Assembly (NCBI GenBank): GCA_016926735.1
Contig: JAFGOA010000225.1
Location: 1 to 35,581, forward strand
Source: Promethearchaeota archaeon
GTDB lineage: Archaea; Asgardarchaeota; Lokiarchaeia; Sigyniarchaeales; SOKP01
Direction: 5' to 3'
Length of the DNA stretch: 35,581 bases
Shown piece by piece: positions 637-29,982 of this stretch. The notes below the pieces were generated by a model, which was not told where the DNA came from, searched no databases, and worked only from the letters and a program-made list of their open reading frames with translations. Every line of letters starts with the position of its first letter. Position 1 is the first letter of the stretch. The translations under genes and the position numbers were made by a program.

Positions 637-1602
637 CTAATTCAAGGTCCAATCCTTAAGAGATTTGAAATTTTCGTCTTTTTTTAAAATCTCTTTAGTA
701 TTTTTATCAAATATTATTGTTATTGTATAAGATCTTTTTCTCGAAAAAGCCTCTGCTAAGATAATTTTTACCTTTACAAATCCATTTTCATATTTAAATA
801 GTGGAATCATTGCATTCCATTTATAAAAAAAACGATATGATTTACTATATTCAATTGCTTTTTGAAAAAATTCTACCTCAATTGAATTTGTATTATATGA
901 TTTATGAATTAATTCTATTGATTTTGATGATAAGATTCTCTTTTTTATTAATCTATAATCGATTATTTCCTCATTTTCTTTAAATTTATAAATCATATAA
1001 AAAATTGGATTGATTTCTGGGATAAATAAGCTATTGTTTGGTAATTTATGTTGGATATATAATTTAATAATTGCTCTATATCCAAAATATGTTATATAAC
1101 TCAAGATAAAAATATAGAAGAGTAGATTAAATGCGAAGATATTAGCTTTAAATATAAAAAATATAATTAAAATTAGATTATTAACTATAGAAATTGATGC
1201 TAATAAAGGGTTTACTGCTTTATCCCCAAGAAACCTATATTCTTTTTTAGTAATTGGATATAAAATGGGAATTTTAGATGATGTAAAAAAATCAAGAAAA
1301 GTGTGCATTGAATAACCAATCATTCCTCCTAACCATGCAAAAAATATAGATATATTTGGATAGACTAATTTTATAACAAAACTAATAAAACCTGTAAATA
1401 TAAATCCAATAATTATTGAATGAGAAGCTGCTTTATGTGAGAACATATAATTTTTTGTTTTTCTCTGTATGGGTTCTAAAATAATATCAAAATCTGGTAA
1501 GAATGACATTAACCATATAAATATGATTGTTTCTGGAGGTGCATGTCCTAACAATGGTATTGGTATTAAGATTCCCATTAAAATATGTGTAAAAAAATCC
1601 AT
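637..1602 (-). CDS. Membrane-bound metal-dependent hydrolase (YdjM/DUF457-like)
   Basis: Motifs MDxxTH, LPDFD, HKAASHS and HTFLD, plus several hydrophobic helices. Confidence 0.8.
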   Translation of the reverse strand: MDFFTHILMGILIPIPLLGHAPPETIIFIWLMSFLPDFDIILEPIQRKTKNYMFSHKAASHSIIIGFIFTGFISFVIKLVYPNISIFFAWLGGMIGYSMHTFLDFFTSSKIPILYPITKKEYRFLGDKAVNPLLASISIVNNLILIIFFIFKANIFAFNLLFYIFILSYITYFGYRAIIKLYIQHKLPNNSLFIPEINPIFYMIYKFKENEEIIDYRLIKKRILSSKSIELIHKSYNTNSIEVEFFQKAIEYSKSYRFFYKWNAMIPLFKYENGFVKVKIILAEAFSRKRSYTITIIFDKNTKEILKKDENFKSLKDWTLN

Positions 1603-1789
1603 CTTAAATCAAATTATAGAACTAATATTGGTTTAAAACTTTCACTCTAATATTTTGGAATTATACTATTTTGTTATAAAAAAAAATTCATCCAAAGATC
1701 TAAAAAAAAAAGTCAAGAAAATTATAAATTAATATTATTTCAACTCTTCACTGAAATTTTATAAAAACTTATTATTTTTTATACAAACC

Positions 1790-2298
1790 AAAAAAATCAT
1801 CTCTCTCCCTTATTTTAAATATCAATCTCACTTAAAATAAAAGTAATTCATATCTTATATTATAAAATAACAAGGGAGATGATAACACAAGTATCGAAAA
1901 TAAAATCATTGGAGGTAAATATCTTAGAATAAAACGTCTCAACGATAAATACTGCCAACAATTCTTCTTACAATTACACTATTCATTAATATTCACGATC
2001 ACATAACTTATTCCTTTATTGATATCAAAATAGGTATGTGTATACTTAGAAGGGTGATAAATGTTTGGAATTTATTCCAATTTATTCTATGCGGGTATTC
2101 TCACAAGTCAAGGATTTTGAGCCTTGTTTGAAAAAGAATAGTCCCTCCTTAGAATACTATAACATTTATTAGACGGATAAGTATTGCGGGATAACTTCCT
2201 TTAAAACTTCGGAGAGAGTACTCGAGGTACGATCGATGATGTATGTTTTGAACTCAGTAATGAGCGAACAGCCTGATAACCCTAGGGCTGGTCTTTTT
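1790..2298 (+). ncRNA. Candidate structured non-coding RNA (no family recognised)
   Basis: No long ORF. Visibly more GC-rich than the flanks over 2090-2295. Many nested helices, some with G-U pairs on the + strand, and a GNRA-capped hairpin CTCA-GTAA-TGAG (2253-2264). TATA-like TTTATAAA at 1758-1765 and a T-run at 2294-2298. Confidence 0.4.
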
Positions 2299-2360
2299 GA
2301 AAAAAAAAAGATTAATAATTAGAATAGAAATTGGTGATTTTTGTAGAAATTACCAGATTT

Positions 2361-2546
2361 TTATAAATAATTTGAAGGTTCTCTTGATAACATTACTTTT
2401 TTATTTTTTTTTTTTAATATTTTCTTTATAAGTAGCATTACATTCTCAGAATCATTTGTTCTGTAAGCTTTTTTTAAGTCTTCAAAAATTACTTGCAAAA
2501 ATGTCACTATGGAAATATTAGTTTTTTTTAAAATGTATGTATCCAA
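2361..2546 (-). CDS. Small hypothetical protein (61 aa)
   Basis: ORF with TTG start, co-oriented and 44 nt downstream of the Cys-rich ORF; no recognisable motif. Confidence 0.4.
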   Translation of the reverse strand: MDTYILKKTNISIVTFLQVIFEDLKKAYRTNDSENVMLLIKKILKKKNKKVMLSREPSNYL

Positions 2547-2590
2547 TAATCTAGTTGACTAAAATTATTTAAATATTTTTTATTAATAAT

Positions 2591-2764
2591 TTAATATAGA
2601 TTCCTGTATTTCTCTTTTATTTTTTTTTCCTTAATCTGAAATTCTGGACAAATTTTATAGTTTGGAAATTTACATATTAATTCTGTTTGTGGAAGTATGC
2701 AACTATAATTAAAAGGACAATACAAAATATGGATTTTTTCAAGAGATTTACTTTCAACTATCAT
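2591..2764 (-). CDS. Small Cys4 putative zinc-binding protein (57 aa), not in the ORF track
   Basis: Manual translation: MIVESKSLEKIHILYCPFNYSCILPQTELICKFPNYKICPEFQIKEKKIKEKYRNLY*. ATG start, TAA stop, spacing C-x5-C-x8-C-x7-C with CPF and CPEF. Confidence 0.7.
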   Translation of the reverse strand: MIVESKSLEKIHILYCPFNYSCILPQTELICKFPNYKICPEFQIKEKKIKEKYRNLY

Positions 2765-2954
2765 ATCTAATGAATAATATAGTTATATTTAAATACAAAA
2801 TTAAAATTTGAATTTCTAATACTTAAGAGATAGAAGGATTTGTAATTTTCTATAATATATTAAAATGATCTCTATATCACCAAAAATTTTTTTAATTTTA
2901 AGATATTATTTTAGAATTAATACTAAGAAATACATAAAAAAGATTTGAATAAAT

Positions 2955-4538
2955 ATGTCAAATATTCCAGTTATTATTTTAAAGGAAGGAACAGAAGAGG
3001 TTCGTGAAAAAGAAGCTAGAACTCAAAATATTAATGCTATGATTGCAATAACAGATGCTGTTCGTTCTACTATGGGTCCTAAAGGCATGGATAAGATGCT
3101 TGTTGACTCATTAGGAGATGTAACTATCACTAATGATGGAGCTGAAATTCTTGATAAACTTGATATTGAAAATGTTGCCGCAACTATGATGGTTAATTTG
3201 GCAAAATCAATTGATAAGGAAGTAGGAGATGGTACAACGTCTGCAGTCGTATTTTGTGCAGCATTATTAAAAAATGCTCTTGAATTAATTGAACAAGATA
3301 TTCATCCAAAACCTATAATTCAAGGATATAAATTAGCAACGGATAAGGCAATTGTAATTATTAATGAAATAGCTGAAAAAATATCAAAAGATGATGAAAA
3401 AATATTAAAAGCCGCAGCTCTTACTTCTATGAATTCTAAAGATATTGCTTCTGCAAAAGATTATTTTGCCGAATTAGTATTAGAAGCTGTTAAACATATC
3501 GCTGAAAAAAATACGGGTTCAATTTATGACAAAATAAATAATATTAAAATTATTAAAGCATCAGGTAAATCTTTAAAAGATTCAGAATTAATTAATGGGA
3601 TTTATATCCAAAAAGAAAAAGTTAGCTCAAGTATGCCTAATAGTATAAAAGGTGCTAAAATAGCTGTTATTAGGAAGAAATTAGATATTGGAAAATCCAC
3701 TTATGATTCTAAAATAGAGATATCAAGTCCAGAAGATATTCAAAAATTCTTAGACCAAGAAAAAACTATGTTAATGAATTTCTTGCAATACTTTAAAAAT
3801 TTAAATGTTAATATGATTGTTAATAATCAAGATATTTCTGATAAGTTTGGAGCTCTCTTAAGTAAAGAAGGAATTGCTGCAATTAAAAATGTTAGTGAAA
3901 GTGATCTTAAGGCTATATTAAATGCAACAAATGCAAATCTTGTTGATGATCTTAAAGGATTAACCGAGGAAGATCTAGGCAGTGCTGATAGCGTTAAATT
4001 TGAAAAGATTGGAGATGATGACTATACTCTATTTACCGGATGTGAACATCCAAAATCAGTTGCAATTCTGTTAAAGGGGGGTCTTGAAAAAATTTTAAAT
4101 ACTGCTGAAATTGCATTACACGACGTAATAAGTGTATTGGCTAAAATAATTGATACGCAATTAGTTGTTGCTGGTGGTGGCGCGATTTATATGGAATTAG
4201 CCAAAAAATTGAAAGTATTTTCTAATGAAATTAGTGGAAAAGAACAATTAGCAATCCAAGCATTTGCTGTTGCCCTTGAAGAAATCCCAAAGACTCTAAT
4301 TCGAAACGCAGGACTAGATGAGATTAAAAAGATTACAGATCTCAGAGCAGCACATAAAACTCCACAAGATAAATGGATAGGTATCGATACAATTAAAAAT
4401 AAAATAGTTGATAATTTTGAAAATGGAATTGTGGAACCTGCAGATTTAGTAAAACACATCATAATGGCTTCAAGTGAGCTTTCTACTCTTGTATTAAGAG
4501 TAGACAGAATAATAAATGCTAAATCAGCAAAAAAATAA
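2955..4538 (+). CDS. ths: Thermosome (group II chaperonin/CCT) subunit
   Basis: STMGPKGMDKML, ITNDG, EVGDGTTS, VAGGGA, GIVEP and LRVDRII motifs. Confidence 0.95.
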   Translation: MSNIPVIILKEGTEEVREKEARTQNINAMIAITDAVRSTMGPKGMDKMLVDSLGDVTITNDGAEILDKLDIENVAATMMVNLAKSIDKEVGDGTTSAVVFCAALLKNALELIEQDIHPKPIIQGYKLATDKAIVIINEIAEKISKDDEKILKAAALTSMNSKDIASAKDYFAELVLEAVKHIAEKNTGSIYDKINNIKIIKASGKSLKDSELINGIYIQKEKVSSSMPNSIKGAKIAVIRKKLDIGKSTYDSKIEISSPEDIQKFLDQEKTMLMNFLQYFKNLNVNMIVNNQDISDKFGALLSKEGIAAIKNVSESDLKAILNATNANLVDDLKGLTEEDLGSADSVKFEKIGDDDYTLFTGCEHPKSVAILLKGGLEKILNTAEIALHDVISVLAKIIDTQLVVAGGGAIYMELAKKLKVFSNEISGKEQLAIQAFAVALEEIPKTLIRNAGLDEIKKITDLRAAHKTPQDKWIGIDTIKNKIVDNFENGIVEPADLVKHIIMASSELSTLVLRVDRIINAKSAKK

Positions 4539-29880: not shown

Positions 29881-29982
29881 TGGGAGGAACGGGATTCGAA
29901 CCCGCGACCTCCTGGTCCCAAACCAGGAATCAGTTTGGAAAAATTAAAGTATAATTTTTATACCAAGCTAGACTACCCTCCC
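29881..29982 (-). tRNA. tRNA-Pro(UGG) with a 28-nt intron at non-canonical position 21/22
   Basis: Acceptor stem GGGAGGG/TCCTCCC+A, anticodon arm CCTGG-TTTGGGA-CCAGG, T arm GCGGG-TTCGAAT-CCCGT. Intron at 29933-29960 sits in a BHB motif. CCA is not encoded. Confidence 0.95.

What the first reader, a model, noticed from the sequence alone, without database searches (positions are those of the whole stretch)
1790..2300. Candidate ~500-nt structured ncRNA of no recognisable family
Seen: a ~760-bp gap between two minus-strand genes with no long ORF and a visibly GC-richer core. Helices found by eye: TCTCCCTT(1804-1811)/AAGGGAGA(1872-1879), with an alternative register ATCATCTC/GAGATGAT; ATTCTTCT(1961-1968)/AGAAGGGT(2048-2055) enclosing CACAT-ACTTATT(2000-2012)/AATAGGT-ATGTG(2029-2040); GGG-TATTCT/AGAATA-gt-CCC (2093-2145) enclosing CAAGG/CCTTG; AATACT/AGTATT (2153-2185); a GNRA hairpin (2253-2264); a terminal CAGCCT/AGGGCTG hairpin followed by a T-run. 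G-U wobbles read on the + strand, and a TATA-like box lies about 30 nt upstream (1758-1765). Inference: an independently transcribed multi-branched RNA. I could not match it to RNase P, SRP, rRNA or an intact group I/II intron, so it may be a new Asgard RNA class.
Basis: partly seen in the sequence, partly recalled or inferred. Interest (0 to 1): 0.72.

Follow-up and report, generated by a model that had tools for sequence, protein, structure and literature searches.

The report
Gene-less transposon keeping its guide RNA
The supposed new RNA gene is a 644-base, protein-less copy of a jumping gene of Asgard archaea that still carries the folded guide-RNA part of its lost TnpB nuclease gene, which is a known kind of element and not a new RNA class.

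Summary
The gap and its GC-richer core are real, and part of it is a conserved folded RNA. It is not an independent gene. Window 1737-2380 is one of five complete copies of a 644-bp repeat in this genome (75-95% identical). It is missing from the same intergenic spacer in two sister species. Its left end and its last ~390 nt match IS607-type elements that encode a serine recombinase plus a TnpB-related protein. Window 1990-2343 is the stop-riddled C-terminal remnant of that tnpB gene. Across 64 copies from several Asgard lineages the last 300 nt keep ten helices plus a pseudoknot to the element's last six bases: 94.2% of cells paired against 39-50% in slid controls, and 48 of 79 pairs with compensatory changes. 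That is the architecture of a TnpB omegaRNA. Three do not, and the "terminator" T-run is one strand of a further helix. No Rfam family matches. Verdict: a PATE-like, gene-less IS607 derivative carrying an omegaRNA scaffold. It is a new member of a known kind, and this scan has already met the kind in other Asgard genomes.

The parts
1733..1736 (+). TATT directly left of the element. Candidate target-adjacent motif (TAM), whose last TT would be the crossover dinucleotide shared with the right end.
   Evidence: TATT precedes the left end in 11 of 12 copies in this genome and AATT in the twelfth. It also precedes the autonomous element in G001:C1. The joined flanks align best to the empty sites when the cut is placed after 1736: score 103 to G001, against 91 and 102 at the other cuts tried.
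1737..2380 (+). The whole non-autonomous, gene-less IS607-family element (644 bp).
   Evidence: Copy boundaries are shared by 5 full copies. The right end ...AAGGTT is followed by unrelated sequence in all copies listed. The orthologous spacers of G001 and G002 lack it.
1737..1757 (+). Left-end terminal hairpin ATTTCA / TGAAAT.
   Evidence: Read directly from the sequence and present in the minimum-energy fold. The motif is kept in the left ends. Covariation was not tested.
1757..1768 (+). Conserved TATA-like box TTTTATAAAAAC in the left end; likely the promoter of the element's transcript.
   Evidence: Present in all 12 left ends of this genome and conserved in the 12-copy alignment. Promoter function is inferred.
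1990..2343 (+). Remnant of the C-terminal ~120 codons of the tnpB-type gene, with in-frame stops.
   Evidence: tblastn to residues 395-512 of the G007 protein, 44.5% identity. The translation shows stop codons. The profile search counts 7 stops inside the match. All ORF-less copies are broken in this frame.
2000..2040 (+). Hairpin H0. In intact genes it lies over the codons of the RuvC-III His motif.
   Evidence: 95.8% of cells paired in 12 ORF-less copies. In 54 sequences, 86.9% paired, with CG/UA and AU/GC exchanges at two pairs.
2065..2080 (+). Small hairpin H0b, GGAA-loop-UUCC.
   Evidence: 97.7% of cells paired, with 5 compensatory cells.
2093..2145 (+). Helices H1 (2093-2101 with 2135-2145) and H2 (2104-2113 with 2122-2130).
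   Evidence: H1: 93.9% paired, 4 of 9 pairs with changes on both sides. H2: 98.0% paired, 5 of 9.
2186..2267 (+). Multibranch domain: H3 (2186-2191 with 2197-2199 and 2265-2267), H4 (2200-2210 with 2238-2252), variable hairpin H5 (2214-2220 with 2228-2234) and GNRA hairpin H6 (2253-2264).
   Evidence: H5 has 6 of 7 pairs with changes on both sides, H6 has 4 of 4, and the main part of H4 has 5 of 8.
2269..2290 (+). Hairpin H7. Its conserved loop GAUAACC(C/U)UA supplies the pseudoknot strand (2278-2283).
   Evidence: 97.8% paired, 4 of 5 pairs with changes on both sides.
2291..2312 (+). Hairpin H8, UCUUUUU / AAAAAGA.
   Evidence: 96-97% paired; 7 of 8 pairs with changes on both sides, for example UA to CG in 16-17 sequences.
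2317..2372 (+). H9 (2317-2328 with 2360-2372) enclosing the right-end hairpin H10 (2331-2356).
   Evidence: H9 95.6-98.8% paired; the outer pairs of H10 91.6% paired, with UA/GC exchange in 20 sequences. The inner register of H10 differs between lineages and was judged by eye only.
2375..2380 (+). Element terminus AAGGTT. It pairs with 2278-2283 to form the pseudoknot and ends in the TT shared with the target.
   Evidence: All 6 pairs are paired in 99-100% of 64 sequences. There is one G-C double change (row L096) and G-U variants in other rows. The window copy itself has a C-A mismatch at 2282/2376.
2381..2400 (+). Flank where the guide segment of the RNA would lie if it works like an omegaRNA.
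   Evidence: Sequence directly 3' of AAGGTT is unrelated between copies. The guide role is inferred from the TnpB literature.

Best explanation
Window 1737-2380 is a non-autonomous, protein-less deletion derivative of an IS607-family insertion sequence of Asgard archaea. The parent type carries a serine-recombinase gene (tnpA) and a tnpB-related gene. Its TnpB is of the zinc-finger-less type with Asp, Glu and His at the RuvC positions. The derivative has kept the left end with its TATA-like promoter and the last ~385 nt. In intact elements those ~385 nt overlap the 3' end of tnpB and encode the scaffold of the element's guide RNA (omegaRNA): about twelve helices plus a pseudoknot between a hairpin loop and the element's last six bases.

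Likely mechanism, inferred from characterised TnpB systems. A transcript started at the left-end promoter runs through the scaffold into the flank. A TnpB protein made by a full-length copy elsewhere trims and binds it. The flank-derived guide together with the TATT motif directs TnpB to the empty site left after excision, so that the element is copied back. A serine recombinase supplied in trans moves the element, crossing over at TT.

Shown here: repeat status, boundaries, insertion polymorphism, homology to tnpB, the covarying + strand structure, and the link to serine recombinase. Inferred: transcription, processing, binding and cutting by TnpB, and the roles of TATT and of the flank.
For: Repeat and mobility. 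There are 5 full copies at 75-100% identity in this genome, plus fragments at contig ends. Matches occur in 17 of 41 related genomes, this genome included. In G001:C84 and G002:C105 the two flanks lie 153 and 138 nt apart, against 757 nt here, and the joined flanks align across the junction.

Parent element. In G007 the left and right ends flank a 518-aa ORF. In the congener G001:C1 a ~2.36-kb element has TATT, a left end 85% identical to the window's, a 208-aa ORF, a 511-aa ORF, and a right end 75% identical that ends in AAGGTT.

Protein identity. TIGR01766 scores E 5.9e-7. Sources name relatives 'IS200/IS605 family accessory protein TnpB-related' among 1168 hits. The predicted fold matches Cas12f and TnpB: 68 chains at E <= 0.001, best 2.6e-7, and ISDra2 TnpB at 1.5e-4. 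D278, E339 and H404 are invariant and there is no CxxC motif. That fits the description of clade RIIIr-4 (passages of PMC10691335).

Serine recombinase. 6 of 51 upstream ORFs carry the Resolvase domain, four of them also with a MerR-type HTH over its cut-off.

RNA structure. 94.2% of 4989 cells pair, against 39-50% when the partners are slid. 48 of 79 pairs show changes on both sides, against 11-28 when slid. 0 of 500 shuffles reach any of the five measures. The 17 rows with a broken reading frame keep 93.1% of pairs and the 47 other rows keep 94.4%. Pairing is 94.2% on the + strand against 85.7% on the - strand.

Coding-sequence signal. Third-codon-position entropy falls from 1.05-1.47 bits to 0.76 from 124 codons before the stop, and to 0.36-0.69 in the last 64 codons (40 intact genes). 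The model is unconfident for residues 460-518, with pLDDT 34-40. Both fit a nucleotide-level constraint on that stretch.

Integrity of this copy. The window copy keeps 74 of 79 consensus pairs.
Against: No intact tnpB and no close serine-recombinase gene is assembled in this genome. There are only frame-intact tnpB fragments that touch contig ends (C69, C10, C115, C58, C111), a frameshifted tnpA remnant on C69, and recombinases at 29-36% identity. A trans-acting partner is therefore assumed and not shown.

The window copy has a C-A mismatch in the pseudoknot, seen in no other of the 64 sequences.

Transcription is not shown. Two metatranscriptome runs from the study of the best DNA holder gave no contig. 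One RNA-library run of another study gave a single 332-nt contig over 2022-2353 at about 95% identity, which may be DNA carry-over or another copy.

Nuclease activity of the His-type TnpB clade is, on the passages I read, only inferred by the authors.

The sequences in the alignments are related, so the counts overstate the number of independent changes.
Confidence: 0.85

Rival explanations
1. This particular copy is an inert, decaying relic. It derives from the transposon as described, but no longer makes a working RNA, and its structure survives only because the insertion is recent.
For: It has a unique C-A mismatch in the pseudoknot, and 5 of 79 consensus pairs are lost. There are seven stops in the tnpB remnant. 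No intact tnpB or matching tnpA is assembled. No contig was found in the two RNA runs of the likely source study.
Against: 74 of 79 pairs are intact. The nearest copy is 94.8% identical, so the family was active not long ago. Among ORF-less copies the 3' module is far better kept than the 5' half: C4 against the window is 87.5% over 2088-2380 but 66.7% over 1744-2100. That argues for selection on the 3' module in gene-less copies. Frame-intact tnpB fragments at five contig ends suggest that full copies exist but are unassembled.
Confidence: 0.3
2. The conserved 3' module is a DNA-level signal, namely binding sites for the recombinase, and not an RNA.
For: Transposon ends must hold recombinase sites. 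The last ~35 nt and the left end share an imperfect inverted match: L007 116-152 against window 2335-2372, 81.6%. An element on C50 keeps only those last 34 nt together with a left end.
Against: Compensatory changes keep base pairs across 300 nt, including long-range helices and a pseudoknot. There are on average 7.6 G-U pairs per sequence, which would be mismatches on the other strand. Suppression of synonymous sites extends 124 codons into the gene. On the passages read, IS607 ends lack palindromes.
Confidence: 0.07
3. It is an independent, host-encoded structured ncRNA gene of a new class.
For: No Rfam match. A conserved TATA-like box lies upstream. The fold z-score is good.
Against: It is multicopy, with defined transposon ends. 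It is absent from the orthologous spacer in two congeners. It is homologous to the 3' end of tnpB. Its 5' third shows no conserved structure.
Confidence: 0.03

Closest known systems
PATE-like, protein-less IS200/IS605-type elements that encode omegaRNAs (Geobacillus stearothermophilus; Meers et al., bioRxiv 10.1101/2023.03.14.532601, passages read)
   Same: Both transposon ends are kept, there is no protein gene, there are several copies, and the guide-RNA scaffold is retained. The scaffold would have to be used in trans by a TnpB encoded elsewhere.
   Different: The parent here is IS607-type (serine recombinase), not Y1-type. The host is an Asgard archaeon. About 250 nt of unexplained sequence between the left end and the scaffold is retained. 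The scaffold is long, about 385 nt.
omegaRNA of IS607-family TnpB (CboIStron and Xylella examples; Zedaveinyte et al., bioRxiv 10.1101/2023.11.20.567912, passages and figure legends read)
   Same: The RNA overlaps the 3' end of tnpB and ends at the right end of the element. A stem-loop forms a pseudoknot with the 3' end of the scaffold. The guide would be the flank. There are no target-site duplications or terminal inverted repeats. A dinucleotide is shared between the target motif and the right end (GG there, TT here).
   Different: No sequence or Rfam-level similarity was found. There is no group I intron. The target motif differs: TATT is proposed here and TGGG is reported there. Nothing here has been tested biochemically.
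TnpB major clade RIIIr-4 (Altae-Tran et al. 2023, PMC10691335, passages read)
   Same: The RuvC-III aspartate is replaced by histidine and the C4 zinc finger is missing, as the paper describes for this clade (alignment).
   Different: Membership rests on those two traits only. I built no tree with the paper's sequences, and I did not see its supplements, which may list guide RNAs for this clade.
Haloarchaeal sotRNAs/omegaRNAs (Rfam RF02656, RF02657; PMC12558985, passages read)
   Same: They are sense-overlapping RNAs at the 3' end of archaeal tnpB, with a pseudoknot to the transposon-encoded end motif and a right-end hairpin.
   Different: The window and four full-length relatives do not match these or any other Rfam models, even at E <= 1 to 10.

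Membership tests
TnpB omegaRNA (OMEGA guide-RNA scaffold) | Lies on the sense strand, overlaps the 3' end of tnpB and ends at the transposon's right end. | tested here: met
   The window's last 300 nt align with the last 300 nt before the right end in 47 rows from loci that carry the gene. Synonymous-site suppression starts 124 codons before the stop. The + strand is favoured, 94.2% against 85.7%.
TnpB omegaRNA (OMEGA guide-RNA scaffold) | Conserved multi-helix scaffold supported by covariation. | tested here: met
   48 of 79 pairs show changes on both sides. 94.2% of cells pair, against 39-50% in slid controls. The upstream hairpins pair at 89.6%, against 34-48%.
TnpB omegaRNA (OMEGA guide-RNA scaffold) | Pseudoknot between a stem-loop and the scaffold's 3' end (the transposon-encoded end motif), plus a right-end hairpin. 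| tested here: met
   AACCUU in the H7 loop pairs with the terminal AAGGUU in 99-100% of 64 sequences, with one G-C double change and G-U variants. The right-end hairpin is 2331-2356. Almost all columns are invariant, so the covariation support is thin.
TnpB omegaRNA (OMEGA guide-RNA scaffold) | A variable guide directly 3' of the scaffold, taken from the flank. | tested here: inconclusive
   Flanks are unrelated from the first base after AAGGTT, as required. Whether the RNA extends into the flank is unknown.
TnpB omegaRNA (OMEGA guide-RNA scaffold) | Transcribed, processed and bound by TnpB. | not testable with these tools
   The only data are a 332-nt contig at about 95% identity in one RNA library and nothing in two others.
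Non-autonomous (PATE/MITE-like) transposon derivative | Has the ends of an autonomous element but no transposase or nuclease gene. | tested here: met
   Left end 85% and right-end module 75% identical to the tnpA+tnpB element of G001:C1. No ORF of 45 aa or more lies wholly within 1737-2380. Only a stop-riddled tnpB tail is present.
Non-autonomous (PATE/MITE-like) transposon derivative | Multiple dispersed copies and insertion polymorphism. | tested here: met
   Five full copies plus fragments. Empty orthologous spacers in G001 and G002. These intergenic sequences are diverged, so the exact junction is approximate.
IS607 family | A serine recombinase with an N-terminal MerR-type HTH is encoded upstream of tnpB. 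| tested here: met
   This holds for relatives, not for this copy. 6 of 51 upstream ORFs carry Resolvase (E 1e-16 to 1e-23); four also show MerR/HTH_17, two over the Pfam cut-offs and two below them. One case lies in a congener. Y1 transposase was not found in this genome (0 matches, completeness 99.3%). It was found in 7 of 26 genomes searched, this genome included, and was never examined for linkage.
IS607 family | No terminal inverted repeats and no target-site duplication; a crossover dinucleotide is shared by the target and the right end. | tested here: inconclusive
   By inspection of the flanks of five copies there is no duplication. TT precedes the left end in 12 of 12 copies, and the element ends in TT in 63 of 64. 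There is no dedicated statistical test and no experimental junction.
TnpB clade RIIIr-4 | RuvC-III Asp replaced by His; C4 zinc finger absent. | tested here: met
   H404 is invariant in 20 proteins, at the position I aligned from memory to the canonical NADxN motif. There is no Cys cluster between RuvC-II and RuvC-III. Phylogenetic placement was not tested.
Any Rfam family (including sotRNA RF02656/RF02657) | Match to the covariance model. | tested here: not met
   No relevant hit at gathering score over the whole window, at E <= 10 over 1500-3000, or at E <= 1 in four full-length relatives.

The most novel reading that the evidence does not exclude
The guide RNA of the His-type, zinc-finger-less TnpB of Asgard archaea is unusually large, about 385 nt with twelve helices and a pseudoknot, and reaches back over the codons of the catalytic His motif. 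Gene-less copies such as this one are kept because their RNAs are used in trans by that nuclease. If so, the window gives a fully specified test system for a TnpB clade whose DNA cutting has not been shown: scaffold 1998-2380, proposed target motif TATT, and a guide starting at 2381.
Probability: 0.4. Interest if true: 0.45.

Novelty: new member of a known kind. Interest (0 to 1): 0.27.

Why it matters
It removes a false lead: this is not a new Asgard RNA class. It also explains why such GC-richer, ORF-free islands recur in these very AT-rich genomes and why contigs break at them. As a by-product it gives a covariation-supported secondary structure, boundaries and a proposed target motif for the guide RNA of a widespread Asgard TnpB family that no Rfam model covers. 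That could be used to annotate these elements and to test whether the His-type nuclease is active.

Tried and rejected
- **Rfam.** Whole window at gathering scores, 1500-3000 at E <= 10, and four full-length relatives at E <= 1. Only a tRNA elsewhere and two microRNA-like chance hits appeared.
- **Group II intron, RNase P and SRP.** Nothing in those scans.
- **Solved structures by sequence.** One chance hit, at E 2.
- **Pfam on the G007 protein.** Only a weak Cas12f1-like_TNB hit, at E 0.036.
- **IS605/Y1 reading.** This was my first reading. I dropped it as the primary one when serine recombinases were found upstream of tnpB in 6 of 51 loci and none of Y1 type in this genome.
- **tnpA remnant inside the mini-elements.** tblastn at E <= 1 found none, so the origin of about 1830-1990 stays open.
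- **Exact empty-site junction.** The orthologous spacers are too diverged for base-level certainty.
- **Left-end alignment across all lineages.** Too diverged to use.
- **Expression.** Two RNA runs of the likely source study gave no contig. One other RNA run gave a 332-nt contig. Neither shows transcription or its absence.
- **A first attempt to cut right ends** failed through a wrong search pattern and was redone.
- **Not done.** I built no covariance model, ran no phylogeny-aware covariation test and made no metagenome scan.
- **Literature.** Searches for TnpB with Asgard, TnpB with Lokiarchae*, Asgard with IS605, and TnpB with non-autonomous and guide RNA found no description of this family's guide RNA. 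Supplements of PMC10691335 were not opened and may bear on that.

Full report
**What is there.** The window is very AT-rich. Between the minus-strand gene 637-1602 and the small minus-strand ORFs beyond 2361 no sizeable ORF exists. GC rises to 35-43% in 2051-2300, from 13-25% around it. No Rfam family matches, either at gathering scores over the whole window or at E <= 10 over 1500-3000, where only two microRNA-like chance hits appear. The stretch as given folds moderately better than shuffles: z -2.59 on the + strand and -1.89 on the - strand.

**It is a repeat.** A DNA search of 41 related genomes found matches in 17, this genome included, and many matches lie at contig ends. In this genome BLAST finds five full-length copies: C52 (the window), C210 at 94.8%, C177 at 91.5%, C18 at 88.6% and C4 at 75.3%. 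All span window positions about 1733-2380. There are also left-end and right-end fragments. Aligning the copies with their flanks fixes the right end at ...TTTATAAATAATTTGAAGGTT (2380), after which the copies are unrelated. The left end starts at ATTTCAAC (1737). It is preceded by TATT in 11 of 12 left ends of this genome and by AATT in one.

**It is an insertion.** In two species of the same genus the genes on either side are present, but the spacer between the flank matches is 153 nt (G001:C84) and 138 nt (G002:C105), against 757 nt here. In a third species (G003:C208) the same spacer holds a different insertion of about 1.2 kb. The window's two flanks, joined in a script, align across the junction to both empty spacers. 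The score to G001 is best when TATT is counted as flank: 103, against 91 and 102 at the other cuts. The spacers are diverged, so the junction is approximate.

**What it derives from.** In G007 the same left end (~90 nt) and right part (~300 nt) enclose a 518-aa ORF. That protein has the following properties.
- It scores E 5.9e-7 to TIGR01766, 'TnpB-related'.
- It has 1168 relatives at E <= 0.001, several named by their sources 'IS200/IS605 family accessory protein TnpB-related protein' or 'IS605 OrfB family transposase'.
- Its model (mean pLDDT 72.3) matches Cas12f, Cas12k and TnpB structures: 68 chains at E <= 0.001, best 2.6e-7, and ISDra2 TnpB 8h1j at 1.5e-4.
- In 20 family members D278, E339 and H404 are invariant, and no cysteine cluster lies between the second and third motifs.

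Altae-Tran et al. (PMC10691335, passages read) describe exactly this pair of traits, His for the RuvC-III Asp and no zinc finger, for their large clade RIIIr-4, and infer but do not show activity. I did not place the protein in their tree.

Window 1990-2343 reads in one frame as residues 395-512 of the G007 protein at 44.5% identity, but with stop codons (seven stops in the profile match). Every ORF-less copy is broken in this frame, by stops or frameshifts.

**Which transposon family.** I first read it as IS605-type. A note from earlier in this scan named the His-type TnpB as IS607-linked, so I tested that. Of 51 largest ORFs in the 700 nt upstream of tnpB in the loci, six carry the Resolvase domain, and four of these also show a MerR-type helix-turn-helix, two over the Pfam cut-offs and two below them. 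One of the six is in a congener: G001:C1 holds TATT, a left end (85% to the window), a 208-aa ORF, a 511-aa ORF, and a right end (75%, ending AAGGTT), about 2.36 kb in all.

A Y1 transposase profile finds nothing in this genome. It finds something in 7 of 26 genomes searched, this genome included, but I did not examine linkage. The passages I read in Zedaveinyte et al. say that IS607 elements move through a circular double-stranded form, lack inverted repeats and target duplications, and share a core dinucleotide between the target motif and the right end. Here TT precedes the left end in 12 of 12 copies, and the element ends in TT in 63 of 64.

This genome's assembly holds no intact tnpB. Of 11 places matched, six have stops and five are stop-free fragments touching contig ends. 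For the recombinase there is only a frameshifted remnant on C69 and distant genes at 29-36% identity. No tnpA remnant is detectable inside the mini-elements.

**The RNA.** I aligned the last 300 nt before the right end from 64 sequences.
- The window and 16 further rows with a broken frame.
- 2 full-length copies from G007.
- 45 of the 61 loci.

Loci left out: eight that stop before the 3' end (L104, L113, L114, L124, L126-L129); L082 and L097, which lack a normal end; L107, which has a duplicated end; and five that duplicate loci already held (L069, L078, L079, L086, L106).

On this MAFFT alignment I wrote a structure of ten helices plus a pseudoknot and counted pairs.
- 94.2% of 4989 cells form standard pairs, against 39.1-50.0% when partners are slid by 1-3 columns.
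- 48 of 79 pairs have a change on both sides, against 11-28 when slid.
- 355 cells carry such changes, against 34-118 when slid and a shuffled mean of 110.
- 0 of 500 shuffles reach any of the five measures.

The structure was partly derived from these sequences and the rows are kin, so these figures overstate independence.

The pseudoknot joins AACCUU in the loop of hairpin H7 to the terminal AAGGUU. All six pairs hold in 99-100% of the rows. One row (L096) changes both partners to G-C, and other rows show G-U variants at these pairs.

Rows with broken frames keep 93.1% of pairs and the others keep 94.4%. Read on the other strand, only 85.7% of cells would pair.

Two further hairpins lie upstream (2000-2040 and 2067-2078). 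They pair in 89.6% of cells in 54 sequences, against 34-48% when slid, with compensatory exchanges at three pairs.

Independent support comes from the coding sequences. In 40 intact genes (46 examined; six had an early stop in the frame I read) third-position entropy is 1.05-1.47 bits along the gene. It drops to 0.76 from 124 codons before the stop, and to 0.36-0.69 in the last 64 codons. The protein model is unconfident there, with pLDDT 34-40 for residues 460-518.

The constrained stretch is therefore about 386 nt, which puts its start near window 1995. The window copy keeps 74 of 79 consensus pairs. One of the five losses is a C-A mismatch in the pseudoknot that no other sequence shows. The refined stretch 1995-2380 folds at -97.1 kcal/mol on the + strand (z -3.44, 0 of 100 shuffles as good), against -66.5 (z -1.81) on the - strand.

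- Supported: the helices at 2093-2145, the GNRA hairpin, the CAGCC/GGCTG hairpin and the 2000-2040 hairpin.
- Not supported: the two helices in 1796-1883 and the helix 1961-1968 with 2048-2055, and AATACT/AGTATT. The 5' part does fold well as a single sequence (z -2.95), so those helices may exist in this subfamily only.
- The T-run is the 5' strand of helix H8.
- The TATA-like box is a conserved left-end motif.

**How it most likely works.** This part is inferred by analogy with studied systems (passages).
- The left-end promoter drives a transcript through the scaffold into the flank.
- A TnpB supplied by a full-length copy binds it.
- The complex recognises TATT plus the flank sequence, which together make up the joint left when the element is excised, and cuts it. 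Recombination with a filled copy then restores the element.
- Movement needs the serine recombinase in trans.

Meers et al. already note that protein-less PATE-like elements often encode such RNAs, which must be used in trans.

Expression could not be settled. One RNA-library contig of 332 nt covers 2022-2353 at about 95% identity. Two RNA runs of the study that holds the DNA gave nothing.

**Novelty.** The kind is known, and this scan has already reported gene-less guide-RNA mini-transposons and the His-type TnpB in other Asgard genomes. What is specific here is a documented structure and boundaries for this family's RNA. No Rfam model covers it, and four literature searches did not find it described. 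Supplements of PMC10691335 were not seen.

Noticed in passing
G000 contig C50:38150-39938 (locus L059, about 100-1890): A ~1.8-kb unit begins with TATT plus a left end 81% like the window's. It ends with the last 34 nt of the right end (94%). Instead of tnpB it encloses a 363-aa ORF with only a weak, sub-threshold Abi_C hit (E 0.015). It may be a cargo-carrying relative of the element that lacks the guide-RNA scaffold.
   Followed up: partly
G003 contig C208:4395-5641 (locus L130): In a third species of the genus the same intergenic spacer holds a different insertion of about 1.2 kb, with left-end-like pieces in the opposite orientation. The spacer may be a repeated landing site.
   Followed up: no
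window 29881-29982, minus strand: The only Rfam hit in the window is a tRNA match that spans 102 nt for a 71-position model (49.3 bits). This suggests a tRNA gene with an intron.
   Followed up: no
G000 contig C69:91652-92111: A left end is followed by a frameshifted remnant of the serine-recombinase gene (residues 7-63, 72-84% identical to the G001 protein) and then by an intact start of tnpB that runs off the contig end. It is a likely full-length or tnpA-deleted copy that the assembly breaks.
   Followed up: partly
proteins P0001-P0120; residues 445-518 of the 518-aa model: The C-terminal ~60-75 residues of this TnpB family are strongly conserved in sequence but modelled with very low confidence (pLDDT 34-54). 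They coincide with the part of the gene under the strongest RNA-level constraint. Their conservation may owe more to the RNA than to the protein.
   Followed up: partly
G002 (for example C114:4150-4469, and many contig ends): This congener holds dozens of matches to only the last 120-200 nt of the element. At least one unit of about 320 nt consists of a left end joined almost directly to that 200-nt module, a still smaller derivative of the same family.
   Followed up: no
loci L118, L122, L128: Three contigs carrying this Asgard-type tnpB are filed under bacterial bin names (Patescibacteria, Deferrimicrobium, Bacteroides). These are probably binning errors and not transfers.
   Followed up: no
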